Shown in pieces: positions 27,618-37,308 of a stretch of DNA of 64,000 bases. Below the pieces are notes generated by a model. That model did not search any database, was not told the origin of the DNA, and saw nothing but the letters and a program-made list of their open reading frames with translations. The DNA comes from the human T2T-CHM13v2.0 reference genome, Homo sapiens. Within the stretch, counting starts at the first letter, position 1; the number at the start of each line of letters is the position of its first letter. The translations under genes were made by a program, and so were the position numbers. The stretch lies in NCBI RefSeq assembly GCF_009914755.1, contig NC_060942.1. One strand, written 5' to 3'.

Positions 27618-28199
27618 CTTTGTGGTTTTATCTACCTTTGGTCTTTGACGATGGTGACGTACAGATGGGTTTTTGGTGTAGATGTCCTTTCTGTTTGTTA
27701 GTTTTCCTTCTAACAGTCAGGACCCTCAGCTGCAGGTCTGTTGGAGTTTACTGGAGGTCCACTCCAGACCCTGTTTGCCTGGGTATCAGCAGCGGTGGCT
27801 GCACAACAGCAGATATTGGTGAATCGCAAATGCTGCTGCCTGATCGTTCCTCTGGAAGTTTTGTCTCAGAGGAGTACCCGGCCGTGTGAGGTGTCAGTCC
27901 GCCCCTAGTTGGGGGTGCCTCCCAGTTAGGCTACTAGAGTGTCAGGGACCCACTTGAGGAGGCAGTCTGCCCGTTCTCAGATCTCAAATCTCAAGCTGCC
28001 TGCTGGGAGAACCACTTCTCTCTTCAAAGCTGCCAGACAGGGACATTTAAGACTGCAGAGGTTATTGCTGTCTTTTTTTTGTCTGTGCCCAGCCCCCAGA
28101 GGTGGAGCCTACAGAGGCAGGCAGGCCTCCTTGAGTTGTGGTGGGCTCCACCCAGTTCGAGCTTCCCGGCTGCTTTGTTTACCTACTCAAGACTGAGCA

Positions 28200-28382
28200 A
28201 TGGCGGGCGCCCCTCCCCCAGCCTCGCTGCCGCCTTGCAGTTTGATCTCAGACTGCTGTGCTAGCAATGAGCGAGGCTCTGTGGGCGTAGGACTCTCCGA
28301 GCCATGTGTGGGATATAATCTCCTGGTGTGCCGTTTGTTAAGCCCGTTGGACAAGCGCAGTATTAGGGTGGGAGTGACCTGA
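28200..28382 (+). CDS. L1 antisense ORF0 homolog, 60 aa, truncated; marks the L1 antisense promoter region
   Basis: MAGAPPPASLPPCSLISDCCASN... matches primate L1 ORF0 and ends early at TGA after 'RVGVT'. Confidence 0.75.
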   Translation: MAGAPPPASLPPCSLISDCCASNERGSVGVGLSEPCVGYNLLVCRLLSPLDKRSIRVGVT

Positions 28383-33651: not shown

Positions 33652-36600
33652 TGGTGCAATCTCGGCTCACCACAACCTCCGCCTCCTGGGTTCAAGCAAT
33701 TCTCCAGCCTCAGCCTTCCGAGCAGCTGGGACTACAGGCATAGGCCAGCATGCCCAGCTAATTTTTGGAGTTTTAGTAGAGACGGGTTCTCACCATGTTG
33801 CCCAGCTGGCCTCGAACTCCTGATCTCAAACGATCCGCCCTCCTCGGCCTCCCAAAGTGGTGGGATTACAGGGGTGAGCCACCGTGCCCAGCCCAGACTG
33901 CTTTTTTAAAGTGGGCTGCCGATCCTGTTCCTCCTTAATGTGTGAGACTTCCTGGCAGGGGTCTTCAACTACCCCTGCCAGTGTCTGCCAGCCAACAGAG
34001 GTTTCCAACCTCCCTGGGATGAAGCTCTCAGAGGCAGAGGCAGGCTGCTACCTTTGCCATTTGGGTGGCTTAGCCATTCCAGCTTGTGGGCTTTGGAGTG
34101 TTCTAGGTGACTGGGGGCTGAAGCGCGGACCCTTAGCACAGCGCAGCTGGTCTACAAAAACGAGGCCAGACTGCTTTTTAAAGGGGGCCCCGATCTTGTT
34201 CCTCCTCACTGGGCAGGGCCTCCCAACTGTGGTCTCCAGCCACCTCCTACAGGTGTGTTTGGGCCACCAACAGGTCCATACCTCTCAGGGACAGACCTCT
34301 TGGAGGGAGGGGCAGGCCGCCATCTTTGCTGTTTCACAGCCTTCACTCGTGTTACCTCTAGATATGGAAGATCCGAGCTGGCTAGGGACAGGATTGGGCC
34401 CCCAGCATACTGCAGCAGCCCTACAGGAAAGTCTCCAGAGTGTCACGTGGATGCCCATTACCGTATCTTTTCAGGGGGCTGGTCCTCTGGGCCTGGGCTT
34501 CCAGCAATCTCCCACCAGAGATGCCAAGCCAATAGCAGCCCTGCAATGCCCTGAACAGAGCCTCCAGGAGCAACTGAAAGCCTCTCTGCCACTGCCTCTA
34601 CAGTGGAACTACCCTTGCTACCTTTGGACTAATGAAGCAGCAAAGACCCTACCTGCCTTATCCACACCTCCAGCAGGCTGCAGTTGACCCAAAAAGAGGA
34701 GGCCAGTCCATCTCTCAATGCTTAAAAAAAAAGTAGGCAGTCTGGCCATCTTTTCATCGAGCAGCTGTGCTGTGCTGGGGGTACGCTCCCATTCCTGGTC
34801 ACGGGGTTCACTTCCAAGCCAGAAAGCTGGATCCGCCCAGCCACCAAAACTGCAAAGATGGCAGGTTGCCCCTCCCCTTAGGAGCTCTGTCGCAGGGAGG
34901 CCTCAAACCTCTGTCAGCTGGAGAGCACTGGCAAGAGTGCCTGGAGACTCCAGTCGGGAGGTCCCGCTCAGTGAGGATGGCGTGTGGCTGGGCTAGGCTG
35001 GCACCTGCCACCCCCGATCGGCTTGAACCCTCTAAAGCCTGCAGGATGCAATGGCTAAGTTGCCCCAACAGCAAAGATGGCGGCCTGCCTCTCCTTCTTG
35101 GAGGTTCATCCTGGGGAGGTTTCAGATCTCTGTCAGGTGGAAAACACCGGGATCAGGGACCCGCTTAAAAGGGCCAACTGGGGGCTGCTCTACGAAAACG
35201 TGGCCAGACTGCTTTTTCAAGTGGGTCCCTGATCCCGTTCCTCTTCACTGGGTGGGAGCTTTCAACTGGGGTGTCCAGCCACCCTTGCCAGTGTTCTCTG
35301 GCTGACAGACGTCCCAAATCTCCTTGAGATGGAGCTCCCAGGGAGTGCGGTAGGCCACCATCTCTTCTATTTGGGCAACTTAGCCCTTCCAGCCTTCGGG
35401 CTCAGAAGTGAACGAGGAGATCGGGGACGGAAGCAGACCCCCAGCACAGCACAGCACAGCACAGCACAGCACAGCACAGCACAGCACAGCACAACACAGC
35501 TGCTCAACAGAACGATGCACAGACTGGTTTTTCAAAAAAACGTAGTGCTGTTTTCTAAAAACAGGCACAATTGCTTACGCCGGTAATCCCAGCACTTTGG
35601 GAGGCTGAGGTGGGCAGATCATGAGGTCAGCAGTTGGAGATCAGCCTGGCCAGCATGGTGACACGGCCTCTTGACTAAAAGTACAAAAAGTTAGCCAGGC
35701 GTGGTGGCGTGCACCTGTAGTCCCAGCTACTCGGGAGGCTGAGGCAGGAGAATTGCTTGAACCTAGCAGGCAGAGGTTGCAGTGAGCCCAGATTGTGCCA
35801 CTACACTCCAGCCTGGGTGGCAGAGTGAGACTCTCTCAAAAAAAAAAGGAAAAAAGAAAAGTGGCCCCAATACTTTTCTGAGTGAGGCTTCTCCTCACTC
35901 AGCGGGACCTGTCAACCGAGGTCTCTCCAGCTACCTCCTACAGATGCATTCAGGCCGTCAACAGCTCCATACCTCCCTGGGACAGGGCTTCCAGTGGGAG
36001 GGGCAGGCCACCATCTTTGCTGTTTTGCAACCTTCATACCTCCAGGTGCTGAAAAATCCAAGGTGACTAGGGACTGGAGCAGGCCCTCAGCATACTGCAG
36101 CAGCCCTACAGAAAGTGGCCACACTGTTACATGGGTGCCCATTCCCGAAACTCCTCACCTGGCAGGTCCTCTAGCCACCCCTCGCCAGACCTATGGAGCC
36201 AGTGGCAGCTCGGCAACTCCATTGACACAGCCTCCAGGGGCAACTGAAAGCCTCTCTGCCACTGCCTCTGCAGTGGAACTGCCCTTGCTACCCTTGGACT
36301 AGTGAAGGAGCAAAGACCCTATGTCCTTGATCCACACCTCCAACGAGCTGCAGTTGACCCAAGGAGAGGAGGCCAGTCCATCTCCCATGGGCCCCACATG
36401 CTCCCCTCTGCTCACTACCAGACAGGGAACCCCCGGCTTGGGCCCACAGCACAGACACTCCAACCTGGGCTGATTGCACTGAGTGAATGCTGACCTGCAT
36501 CTCTATGGGTGGAGCCCCCAGGAGACACGCGAAAGACCCTTGGCCACAGCCACTACTAAGGTCCCTTTCTCTGTGCCTCCAAGTTGGGGAAGGAACATAA

Positions 36601-37308
36601 ACACTGAGATCGCCCCCGAGCTGCAGTGGGCAGCCCAGGAGTGCCAAGCCACAATCTACAGCCAGCACTCAAGGGGGAGAGGAACCCATACTTTCAGAGT
36701 ACTGGGAAGGAACAGGGCTGCAAGTGTGGTTCAACATAGAGGAGCCACACAAACGAGCAAGAGTTTACCAACTGACCAATATTCCTAAGCGCCACCTACT
36801 GGATCACACCCTAGAACCTCAACACCAAAAGTACCTTGCTAACATACTCCCATCTGAAACCAAAGACAAGAAGTCAGCTTCAAATCAAGACCCGAATAAA
36901 GTGTCAGTTCTGTGAAAACATCCAGAAAAGAAGTCTATTGACTGTACTGAGTCTGCACTGAAGTTAAAGGAACACCCACATGCAGAGATGAGAAAGAACC
37001 AACGCGAGAACTCTGGTAACTCAAATGGCCAGAGTGCCATACGTCCTCCTAAGGACCACAACAGTTCTCCAAGAAGAGTTCTTAACCAGACAGAGCTGGC
37101 TGACATGATAGAAATAGAATTCAGACTATGGGCAGGAATGAGGACCGTTGAGATTCAGGAAGATGGCAATACCTAATGCAAGGAAACCGAGAATCACAAT
37201 AGAATAATACAGGAGCTGAAGGATGAAATAGCCACCATAGGAAAAAAAAACACCACCACCACTAAGAGGCCTGACGGAGTTGAGTAACACAATACAAGAA
37301 TTTCACAA
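33652..37308 (+). repeat. Right arm of large inverted repeat
   Basis: Reverse complement of 28602-32252. Confidence 0.97.

What the first reader, a model, noticed from the sequence alone, without database searches (positions are those of the whole stretch)
27900..37308. L1 antisense promoter aimed into the palindrome: candidate 3.6-kb hairpin-RNA locus
Seen: the minus-strand L1PA 5'UTR with its ORF0 homolog (28200-28382, +) directly abuts the left arm, and the upstream gene is also transcribed on +. Established: the primate L1 antisense promoter drives transcripts into flanking DNA. Long intramolecular dsRNA is a substrate for ADAR1, Dicer, MDA5 and PKR, and inverted-repeat hairpin loci yield endo-siRNAs in mouse oocytes and Drosophila. 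Inference, untested: any transcript crossing the palindrome would fold into an almost perfect 3.6-kb stem of L1-5'UTR and Alu sequence, kept perfect by conversion. This could be a germline small-RNA source or an endogenous dsRNA ligand. The sequence gives no evidence of expression.
Basis: inference. Interest (0 to 1): 0.7.

Follow-up and report, generated by a model that had tools for sequence, protein, structure and literature searches.

The report
L1-built near-perfect palindrome beside ANKRD62
A real 3.65-kb-armed, 99.8%-identical inverted duplication made from the front end of an ancient L1 retrotransposon sits just downstream of a decayed younger L1 whose antisense promoter points into it, but nothing in the sequence shows that it is more than a passive structural rearrangement.

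Summary
The arms are 28602-32252 and 33652-37308, with a 1399-bp spacer. They differ by 7 transitions and 2 indels. A minus-strand L1PA 5'UTR (27717-28601) abuts the left arm. It carries a 60-aa antisense ORF at 28200-28382 (+), the common antisense ORF of L1PA 5'UTRs.

The stem is not L1PA sequence. It is the 5' part of an older L1 plus two Alus. The right arm runs without a break into the rest of that L1, up to about 42280.

The L1PA is dead. It lacks its first ~37-38 nt, has no target-site duplication and is CpG-depleted.

Only one canonical poly(A) signal (36895) lies on the + strand between the antisense ORF and the end of the palindrome. The RefSeq ANKRD62 span reaches past the palindrome. 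A stem of about 3.3-3.65 kb is therefore physically possible.

No expression evidence exists. Small RNAs from the stem would have no close target: the best non-self match is 81%. An intronic hairpin would not reach cytosolic sensors.

Whether conversion keeps the arms alike is unresolved. A GC-bias test gives moderate support. I rate it an ordinary though unusually clean inverted duplication, of low-moderate interest.

The parts
21526..28601 (-). Decayed, nearly full-length L1PA element. The poly(A) reads as poly-T from 21526 on +, and the 5' end is at 28601.
   Evidence: Pfam ORF1 and EN/RT domains. ORF1p matches PDB 2ykp only up to codon 305, where an Alu sits at 26514-26838. The ORF2 region is split over several frames. 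No target-site duplication is found in the window.
27717..28601 (-). L1PA 5'UTR, missing about the first 37-38 nt of the element. It contains the region where L1PA2-8 elements carry their antisense promoter.
   Evidence: 39 other genomic copies align over 1-885 at 90-93%. 8 of 10 other copies examined carry an extra ~35-38 nt 5' of the point where this copy stops. CpG o/e is 0.32-0.50.
28200..28382 (+). 60-aa antisense ORF (ORF0 homolog) reading toward the palindrome.
   Evidence: ORF listing. 150 of 150 scored genomic matches are 82-100% identical including the locus itself (82-93% for the other 149), and 16 have one stop. ORF0 and the ASP in L1HS/L1PA2-8: PMC4908685 passages.
28602..32252 (.). 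Left arm: the old-L1 5' region in minus orientation. The outer ~325 bp are L1 ORF1-side sequence, followed by unique 5'UTR, an Alu, GC-rich ~270-330-bp monomers, a second partial 5'UTR copy and an Alu.
   Evidence: Arm nt 1-1420 hits dispersed copies at 76-81%. Structure against 6 family copies.
32253..33651 (.). Spacer of 1399 bp. It holds the last ~55 bp of the left Alu, then ~1150 bp of monomers in the left-arm orientation (32313-33464), then ~165 bp in the opposite orientation (33489-33651).
   Evidence: A 49-bp tandem duplication lies at 32834-32929.
33652..37308 (.). Right arm: the same sequence in plus orientation, continuous with the rest of the old L1.
   Evidence: Alignments of family copies run through 37308/37309 without a break.
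33893..42280 (+). Old L1 element on the + strand (5' monomers and UTR inside the right arm, ORF1 and ORF2 remnants outside it), with Alu insertions at 35562-35859 and 40461-40767.
   Evidence: Pfam ORF1 fragment at 37575-37871. About 75% identity to the L1PA copies of the window over 36983-42169. About 80% identity to family copies.
30050..30348 (.). Alu inside the left arm (mirror copy at 35562-35859). It is inverted relative to the second Alu of the same arm.
   Evidence: Hits to other Alus of the window at 76-82%. Pair 30067-30224/32138-32295 is 82% complementary.
32004..32307 (.). Complete Alu crossing the left-arm/spacer boundary. Its mirror copy at 33652-33900 is cut off exactly at the right-arm boundary.
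   Evidence: 32010-32295 aligns to the Alu at 16625-16911, but 33660-33894 aligns only to 16625-16860.
30410..30463 (.). (GCTGT)n microsatellite holding the 5-nt arm-to-arm indel (mirror at 35442-35500).
36895..36900 (+). The only canonical poly(A) signal (AATAAA) on the + strand between 28000 and the end of the palindrome.

Best explanation
This is a retrotransposon-built palindrome: an inverted duplication of the 5' end of an ancient, long-dead L1, carrying two old Alus. It is not a dedicated RNA gene.

Shown:
- The right arm is continuous with the rest of that L1.
- The left arm is continuous with the spacer through a complete Alu.
- The left arm's outer end is joined, with at most 1-2 nt of shared sequence, to about nt 38/39 of a younger L1PA that has no target-site duplication.
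- The right arm's inner end cuts an Alu.

Inferred. Each arm is intact on a different side. I therefore think the duplication was once larger and is older than its 0.19% divergence suggests. It was then trimmed twice: on the left outer side at the L1PA junction and on the right inner side near the centre. The block still shared by both arms is kept alike by arm-to-arm gene conversion.

How it works (inferred).
- At DNA level the arms can exchange sequence and can invert the spacer by recombination.
- At RNA level, a + strand transcript that crosses it can fold into a hairpin of about 3.3-3.65 kb, depending on whether it is cut at the 36895 poly(A) signal. The most plausible source is the long ANKRD62 pre-mRNA in germ cells. 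A less plausible source is the L1PA antisense promoter.
- Such a hairpin would be nuclear and mostly intronic. I expect ADAR editing and decay, not small-RNA silencing or cytosolic sensing.
For: Structure.

Stem content.
- Arm nt 1-1420 matches dispersed copies on many chromosomes at 76-81% (40 of 13458 first-look candidates were scored). Monomer hits follow directly in the same loci.
- The collinear layout was checked against 6 family copies.
- There is no second copy of the arm elsewhere in the genome above 81%.

Junctions.
- The L1PA stops ~37-38 nt short of the 5' end carried by 8 of 10 other copies (junction sequences).
- No copy of the 12-20 nt next to its poly(A) occurs elsewhere in the window at 0-1 mismatch.
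- The left Alu is complete across 32252 and the right Alu is cut at 33652.

Age and conversion.
- In arm segment 28602-30021, AT-to-GC changes make up 0.496 of polarised AT/GC changes. In 26 other family copies the mean is 0.293 and the maximum 0.355, so 0 of 26 reach the arm's value (OR 2.38, p 7e-6).
- Leaving out changes that sit in CpG, the figures are 0.422 against 0.266 (OR 2.01, p 9e-4).

No coding or known RNA function.
- 0 Rfam matches at gathering score in 20000-46000.
- 10 of 13 translated frames have no Pfam family, including the 269-aa frame in the arms. The other 3 are L1 proteins.
- CpG o/e is 0.12-0.50 throughout, so there is no CpG island.

RNA side.
- One + strand poly(A) signal, at 36895.
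- The hub annotation puts the palindrome inside the ANKRD62 span.
- ANKRD62 is listed as testis-restricted in the Human Protein Atlas, and as a meiosis-stage fetal-ovary gene, in a table of PMC12055976 (passage).
- Intronic dsRNAs are not MDA5-immunogenic (PMC12695637, passages).
Against: - The GC-biased pattern is partly regional. The same L1 outside the palindrome also shows it, more weakly: OR 1.44 (p 0.087; 1 of 23 copies reaches it), OR 1.42 (p 0.07; 1 of 14) and OR 1.54 (p 0.026; 0 of 16). By my own rough hand comparison of those odds ratios (no tool call), the arm-specific excess is about p 0.03 with CpG-sited changes and about 0.15 without.
- 15 of the arm's 58 AT-to-GC changes sit in CpG. 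They could reflect retained CpGs rather than conversion.
- A divergence of 0.19% is just what a duplication about 1-2 million years old would show with no conversion at all.
- A single replication-based event with three template switches could give the same asymmetric junctions.
- The annotated end of the long ANKRD62 transcript (68651) lies ~46 nt inside another L1 5' end and has no poly(A) signal within 30 nt. The nearest, ATTAAA at 68545, is ~100 nt upstream. That transcript may be a partial cDNA of low abundance.
- No expression, methylation or population data could be consulted.
Confidence: 0.5

Rival explanations
1. Young fold-back duplication. A single replication-based rearrangement (template switching or fold-back priming with about three switches) within the last 1-2 million years copied the old L1 5' region in inverted orientation and joined it to nt ~39 of the pre-existing L1PA. 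The arms are alike only because they are young. It may be human-specific and polymorphic.
For: - 7 substitutions in about 3646 bp (0.19%), all transitions, 4 of them at CpG, plus two indels in repeat tracts. This is the spectrum expected of recent mutation.
- The junction with the L1PA has at most 1-2 nt of shared sequence and no target-site duplication, as expected if the breakpoint cut into an existing L1PA.
- No paralogous copy exists elsewhere.
- 0 of 6 other family copies contain inverted repeats of 80 nt or more, whereas this locus also has older internal ones (30450-30663 against 30927-31140, 71%). The locus may therefore be prone to fold-back events.
Against: - Neither arm is a clean insert. 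The left arm is continuous with the spacer and the right arm with the outer flank, so one simple duplication does not fit. At least three switches or later deletions are needed.
- The arm shows a stronger GC-biased substitution pattern than the same element outside it and than all 26 family copies. A duplication 1-2 million years old would not have had time to create that.
Confidence: 0.33
2. The L1PA antisense promoter, or ANKRD62 read-through, makes a transcript that crosses both arms. Its 3.6-kb hairpin then serves as a germline small-RNA source or as an endogenous ligand for ADAR1, MDA5 or PKR.
For: - The orientation is correct and the antisense ORF is intact.
- The 5'UTR aligns end to end with other copies without large gaps, so the antisense-promoter region is structurally present.
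- ASP activity and ORF0 are reported for L1HS and L1PA2-8 (PMC4908685, passages).
- There is no + strand poly(A) signal before 36895.
- Perfect duplex runs reach 955 bp.
- The host gene is germline-expressed (PMC12055976, table passage).
- Mouse inverted repeats in a gene's 3' end (Optn) or intron (Anks3) do give low-level endo-siRNAs (PMC11239679, passages).
- An L1PA2 antisense-driven EST exists for the neighbouring gene C18orf61, from a different L1 (supplement of PMC4908685).
Against: - There is no expression evidence of any kind.
- The 5'UTR and arms are CpG-depleted, as expected of germline-methylated DNA.
- ANKRD62 has 0 occurrences in the 10 supplementary files of the ASP catalogue.
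- ORF0 carries two splice donors, so ASP transcripts tend to be spliced (PMC10760644, passage). Splicing could remove the arms.
- Small RNAs would match only this locus closely. The next best genomic match is 81%, and the family is long extinct.
- Intronic dsRNA is not sensed by MDA5, and mammalian Dicer handles long dsRNA poorly outside mouse oocytes.
- Each arm also holds its own inverted Alu pair, which offers competing local structure.
Confidence: 0.1
3. Assembly artefact. The inverted copy is a mis-join or a duplicated read path in the assembly and does not exist in the genome.
For: Near-identical inverted copies are a known failure mode of assemblers (my own knowledge, no call). I could not inspect reads.
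Against: The arms differ at 7 substitutions and 2 indels. They have distinct junctions: an L1PA on one side, and a cut Alu against a complete Alu at the centre. An artefactual self-copy would not show these features.
Confidence: 0.03

Closest known systems
Large sex-chromosome palindromes (human X and Y; PMC8327919, abstract and passages; PMC3723533, search listing only)
   Same: Two inverted arms of more than 99% identity around a unique spacer. Recombination between arms is expected to invert the spacer. Structural damage is concentrated at the centre: here a cut Alu and a lopsided spacer. The palindrome lies in the transcription unit of a testis-expressed gene.
   Different: The arms are 3.65 kb, against 8-140 kb. 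It is autosomal. There is no protein-coding gene in the arms or spacer, so the force proposed to preserve X palindromes, selection on arm genes, has nothing to act on. Conversion is only suggested here, not shown.
Mouse inverted-repeat endo-siRNA loci Optn and Anks3 (PMC11239679, passages) and Drosophila hairpin-RNA genes (recalled, not read)
   Same: An inverted repeat inside or at the end of a host gene's transcription unit could fold into a stem-loop. The Optn loop is about 1 kb; this one is 1.4 kb.
   Different: The stem here is about 12 times longer (3.65 kb against ~300 bp). No small RNAs are known from it. Humans lack the truncated oocyte Dicer that makes mouse oocyte RNAi efficient (the absence in humans is recalled). 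No trans target exists above 81% identity.
L1 antisense-promoter chimeric transcripts (PMC4908685, passages and supplement search; PMC10760644, passages)
   Same: An L1PA 5'UTR with the ORF0-type antisense ORF faces flanking DNA on the strand of the neighbouring gene.
   Different: No EST or other transcript is known from this copy. What lies downstream is not an exon but a palindrome. The copy is 5'-truncated and CpG-poor.
Inverted Alu pairs as ADAR1/MDA5 substrates (PMC12695637, abstract and passages)
   Same: Repeat-derived intramolecular dsRNA. Each arm even contains such an Alu pair.
   Different: The stem is ten times longer and far more perfect than an Alu pair. It is not in any annotated exon or 3'UTR, which is the location that paper found to matter for immunogenicity.

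Membership tests
Large palindrome of the sex-chromosome type | Arm-to-arm identity above 99% | tested here: met
   99.64% counting indel columns; 7 substitutions in ~3646 bp, or 99.8%.
Large palindrome of the sex-chromosome type | Arms of at least 8 kb (the range found on the human X is 8-140 kb; PMC8327919) | tested here: not met
   Arms are 3651 and 3657 bp.
Large palindrome of the sex-chromosome type | Protein-coding (often testis) gene family in the arms or spacer | tested here: not met
   No Pfam family in 10 of 13 frames tested, including the arm and spacer frames. The only hits are L1 proteins outside or at the edge of the arms. No RefSeq exon lies there (hub annotation).
Large palindrome of the sex-chromosome type | Ongoing arm-to-arm gene conversion | tested here: inconclusive
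   The GC-biased substitution excess in the arm is OR 2.38, against OR 1.42-1.54 in the same element outside it. No population or cross-species data were available.
Hairpin-RNA / endo-siRNA locus | Inverted repeat able to form a long intramolecular stem | tested here: met
   perfect runs of up to 955 bp.
Hairpin-RNA / endo-siRNA locus | A single transcript that spans both arms | not testable with these tools
   There are only indirect pointers: the annotated ANKRD62 span reaches 68651, and there is one + strand poly(A) signal, at 36895.
Hairpin-RNA / endo-siRNA locus | Dicer-dependent 21-23-nt RNAs from the stem | not testable with these tools
   No small-RNA data are held. Paper searches returned nothing on this locus.
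Hairpin-RNA / endo-siRNA locus | A target gene or active element with near-perfect complementarity | tested here: not met
   The best non-self match of the arm in the whole genome is 81% (40 of 13458 candidates were scored, so closer short matches cannot be fully excluded).
L1 antisense-promoter-driven transcript | L1HS/L1PA2-8-type 5'UTR with the antisense ORF, facing outward | tested here: met
   The subfamily name itself was not determined; no repeat library is held.
L1 antisense-promoter-driven transcript | [quoted passage not shown] | tested here: inconclusive
   0 occurrences of ANKRD62 in the 10 supplementary files of PMC4908685. That catalogue holds only ESTs spliced to gene exons.
Immunogenic cytosolic dsRNA (MDA5 substrate) | Located in a processed, exported RNA (exon or 3'UTR) | tested here: not met
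   No annotated exon overlaps 28602-37308 (hub annotation). The requirement is taken from PMC12695637 passages.

The most novel reading that the evidence does not exclude
An autosomal palindrome without any coding gene has been held at 99.8% identity by gene conversion since before or around the time the L1PA arrived. It is transcribed in human germ cells, within the long ANKRD62 pre-mRNA or from the demethylated L1PA antisense promoter, as a 3.6-kb hairpin. That would make it a natural human long-hairpin RNA locus that feeds ADAR editing, Dicer or dsRNA sensors. The palindrome would then be preserved for its RNA structure rather than for a protein.
Probability: 0.08. Interest if true: 0.7.

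Novelty: new member of a known kind. Interest (0 to 1): 0.33.

Why it matters
If the hairpin were transcribed and processed, it would be a rare human counterpart of the mouse and fly hairpin-RNA loci. With perfect duplex runs of nearly 1 kb, it would also be a candidate strong endogenous dsRNA.

As the evidence stands, its value is more modest:
- It is a clean, datable example of how retrotransposon 5' ends can be folded into a palindrome.
- It is a natural test case for gene conversion against youth in a small autosomal palindrome. Ape and pangenome assemblies could settle that at once.
- It is a likely site of spacer inversion polymorphism inside the extended ANKRD62 unit.

Tried and rejected
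- Known RNA families: 0 matches at gathering score in 20000-46000.
- A hidden gene in the arms: the 269-aa open frame (31217-32026 -, mirrored at 33878-34687 +) and other frames have no Pfam family. I take them as chance frames in GC-rich repeats.
- A CpG-island promoter in the arms or the L1PA 5'UTR: rejected, since CpG o/e is 0.12-0.50.
- An L1PA simply inserted into a longer left arm, with the rest of the arm beyond its poly(A): rejected. Nothing left of 21526 matches the right flank 37309-42280 in inverted orientation, and there is no target-site duplication.
- Nested insertion (a full-length old L1 inserted into another, which would explain the second partial 5'UTR copy at 34202-34717): not supported. 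No remainder is found after 42280.
- The palindrome continuing into the spacer at high identity: rejected. The in-register alignment 32345-32470 against 33489-33614 is only 71% complementary. The better matches (88-92%) are shifted by one or two monomer lengths and look like paralogous monomers.
- Inverted monomers as a native trait of the old L1 family: rejected, with 0 of 6 other copies showing inverted repeats of 80 nt or more.
- ANKRD62 papers: one (PMC13083603, passages) says nothing on normal-tissue expression or isoforms.
- Searches for published palindrome or hairpin reports returned only general or sex-chromosome work among the papers listed (one search listed 12 of 1,181 matching papers). 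The titles and abstract openings shown, and the passages I read, did not mention this locus. I did not search chr18 coordinates. I also did not search ANKRD62 together with palindrome or hairpin terms. Of the 44 ANKRD62 papers, I opened two. Supplements of bioRxiv preprints, and any PDF supplements, could not be seen.

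
Full report
**1. Is it there?**

Yes. The repeat finder on 26000-40000 finds three gapless inverted blocks that together form one palindrome:
- 28602-30463 with 35447-37308
- 30412-30900 with 35005-35493
- 30900-32252 with 33652-35004

The arms are 3651 and 3657 bp and the spacer is 1399 bp (32253-33651). blastn aligns 3652 columns at 99.644%, with 7 mismatches and 2 gap openings.

A global alignment places the mismatches at left-arm positions 28610, 29566, 30300, 30757, 31372, 32223 and 32232. 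All seven are transitions, and four sit at CpG. The two indels are 5 nt in a (GCTGT)n tract and 1 nt near 30900. The '100%' printed is rounding.

In a + strand RNA the seven sites would be five A-C mismatches and two G-U pairs. The longest uninterrupted run is 955 bp.

A whole-genome search with the left arm finds only the two arms at high identity. The next best match is 81%. The structure is therefore unique and is not part of a larger duplicated family.

**2. What lies to the left?**

A minus-strand L1PA runs from its poly(A) (poly-T from 21526 on +) to 28601.
- Its ORF1 frame (26700-27716) carries the three L1 ORF1 Pfam domains, and 24510-26249 carries the endonuclease and the start of the reverse transcriptase.
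- The ORF1 match to the solved human ORF1p (2ykp) stops at codon 305, where an Alu sits at 26514-26838. ORF2 is in pieces. The element is dead.
- Its 5'UTR (27717-28601) aligns end to end with 39 other genomic copies at 90-93%.
- Eight of ten other copies examined carry a further ~35-38 nt at the 5' end that this copy lacks. The copy stops exactly at the arm.
- No copy of the 12-20 nt next to its poly(A) exists elsewhere in the window at 0-1 mismatch, so there is no target-site duplication.

All 150 scored genomic matches, one of them the locus itself, are 82-100% identical in protein (82-93% for the other 149). 134 have no stop and 16 have one. It is thus the common antisense ORF of this kind of 5'UTR.

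Two papers state that L1HS and L1PA2-8 carry ORF0 downstream of an antisense promoter in the 5'UTR (PMC4908685 and PMC7746726, passages). A third states that ORF0 has two splice donors (PMC10760644, passage). I did not have the published ORF0 sequence, and no repeat library is held. The names 'ORF0' and 'L1PA' therefore rest on position, strand, the ORF1p match and these papers.

**3. What is the stem made of?**

It is not the abutting L1PA.
- The outer 1420 nt of the arm match dispersed copies on many chromosomes at 76-81%. In those same loci the match is followed directly by hits to the arm's inner ~270-330-bp GC-rich units.
- Against six such copies, the right arm plus its flank reads as one old L1 on the + strand. 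From the centre outward it holds a cut Alu and a partial 5' copy (monomers plus 515 nt of unique 5'UTR, 33893-34717).
- Next come monomers in both orientations, a microsatellite, an Alu (35562-35859) and the unique 5'UTR from 35891.
- ORF1 and ORF2 remnants then run on to about 42280.
- The alignments pass through the arm boundary 37308/37309 without a break.

**4. Origin**

The junctions are asymmetric.
- Outer side: the right arm is continuous with its flank. The left arm ends at a non-homologous junction with about nt 38/39 of the L1PA, with at most 1-2 nt shared.
- Inner side: the reverse holds. The left Alu (32004-32307) is complete and crosses the arm boundary into the spacer, while its mirror copy is cut off exactly at 33652.
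- Spacer: it is lopsided, with about 1150 bp of monomers in the left-arm orientation and about 165 bp in the other.

Neither arm is therefore a clean insert. Two histories fit.

(a) An older and once larger inverted duplication was trimmed on the left outer side, by the L1PA's own insertion with loss of target DNA or by a later deletion. It was also trimmed on the right inner side. Damage near the centre is what was found for X palindromes (PMC8327919, passages). The block that is still collinear is kept alike by gene conversion. This history explains why the identity stops exactly where collinearity stops.

(b) A young replication-based event with about three template switches. At commonly used human substitution rates (recalled), 0.19% divergence corresponds to roughly 1-2 million years.

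**5. A test between the two histories**

Long-running conversion is GC-biased. The title of PMC3723533 (search listing only) names rapid GC-biased conversion in a Y palindrome.

I aligned arm segment 28602-30021 with 26 other copies of its family and polarised each copy's private changes against the column majority of the others.
- The arm has 58 AT-to-GC and 59 GC-to-AT changes, a fraction of 0.496.
- The 26 others have mean 0.293, sd 0.031 and maximum 0.355. None reaches the arm (OR 2.38, p 7e-6).
- Leaving out changes that sit in CpG, the figures are 0.422 against 0.266 (OR 2.01, p 9e-4).
- The arm segment also has the highest GC content: 52.0%, against 46.8-50.2% in the others.

The control weakens the result. 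The same element outside the palindrome is also shifted:

| Segment | OR | p | Other copies reaching it |
|---|---|---|---|
| 37309-38758 | 1.44 | 0.087 | 1 of 23 |
| 38759-40455 | 1.42 | 0.07 | 1 of 14 |
| 40775-42170 | 1.54 | 0.026 | 0 of 16 |

Part of the bias is therefore regional. By my rough hand comparison of the odds ratios, the arm-specific excess is significant at about 0.03, or about 0.15 without CpG-sited changes.

I read this as moderate support for history (a). I put it at about 0.5, against 0.33 for (b).

**6. Would it make a hairpin RNA, and would that matter?**

In favour:
- The antisense ORF starts 402 nt from the arm and reads toward it.
- The + strand has a single canonical poly(A) signal between 28000 and 37308, at 36895. 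By my own estimate from base composition, about two would be expected, so this is unremarkable. It does mean that a transcript could include the whole left arm and at least 3.2 kb of the right arm.
- The hub annotation shows the ANKRD62 span reaching 68651, with the second transcript's last in-window exon at 19069-19221. The palindrome would then lie in its intron.
- ANKRD62 is listed as testis-restricted in the Human Protein Atlas, and as a meiosis-stage gene of the fetal ovary (PMC12055976, table passage).

Against:
- No expression data could be consulted.
- The annotated transcript end lies ~46 nt inside another L1 5' end, with no poly(A) signal within 30 nt. It looks like a partial cDNA.
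- The 5'UTR and arms are CpG-depleted (o/e 0.12-0.50), as expected of DNA methylated in the germ line.
- ANKRD62 does not occur in the 10 supplementary files of the L1-ASP catalogue. A neighbouring gene, C18orf61, does, driven by a different L1PA2.
- Small RNAs from the stem would have no close target (81% at best).
- Intronic dsRNAs are removed by splicing and are not MDA5 substrates (PMC12695637, passages).
- Mammalian Dicer cuts long dsRNA inefficiently outside mouse oocytes, although mouse Optn and Anks3 inverted repeats give low-level endo-siRNAs (PMC11239679, passages).
- Each arm also has its own inverted Alu pair, which offers competing local folds.

**7. Verdict**

The interpretation remains an untested possibility with several counts against a selected function.

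The structure is best filed as a small autosomal palindrome built from retrotransposon 5' ends. It is a new member of a known kind. It fails the size and gene-content criteria of the classical large palindromes, and it cannot be tested for membership among hairpin-RNA loci with the tools at hand.

Noticed in passing
window 30450-30663 vs 30927-31140 (mirror 34764-34977 vs 35242-35455): An older, 71%-complementary inverted pair of L1 monomers lies inside each arm. 0 of 6 other copies of the family have any inverted repeat of 80 nt or more, so this locus seems to have folded back more than once.
   Followed up: partly
window 36983-42170 (old L1 outside and at the edge of the palindrome): The whole old L1, not only the arm, shows more AT-to-GC private changes than its family (OR 1.42-1.54 in three segments). 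This hints at a regional GC-biased process such as a recombination hot region.
   Followed up: partly
L021, i.e. window 68532-68691 (outside the window): The annotated end of the ANKRD62 gene span (68651) falls ~46 nt inside the 5' end of a plus-strand L1PA-type element. The nearest poly(A) signal (ATTAAA, 68545) is about 100 nt upstream, so the long transcript's 3' end looks truncated at a repeat.
   Followed up: partly
window 26514-26838: An Alu interrupts the L1PA ORF1 at about codon 305. The 338-codon open frame continues into the Alu by chance.
   Followed up: yes
window 53872-61800: A second minus-strand L1PA (83% identical to the first over ORF1 and 5'UTR, ending near 60373) also abuts an old-L1 fragment in the same orientation (60423-61791, 75% to 36983-38342). 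The arrangement is similar but there is no palindrome.
   Followed up: no
outside the window, gene C18orf61 (window 87746-111682): The L1-ASP catalogue lists an EST (BE568192, bladder carcinoma) starting antisense in a minus-strand L1PA2 and spliced into C18orf61. L1 antisense-driven transcription is thus documented in this neighbourhood, from another element.
   Followed up: no
window 32834-32929: A 49-bp unit is duplicated in tandem (2.0 copies, 95% matches) inside the spacer.
   Followed up: no
L003-L008 and window 30435-33464: The old L1 family has a 5' end made of tandem GC-rich units of about 270-330 bp (0.5-1.1 kb in other copies). This monomer-type 5'UTR is unlike that of the young human L1. 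The family was not named, for lack of a repeat library.
   Followed up: partly
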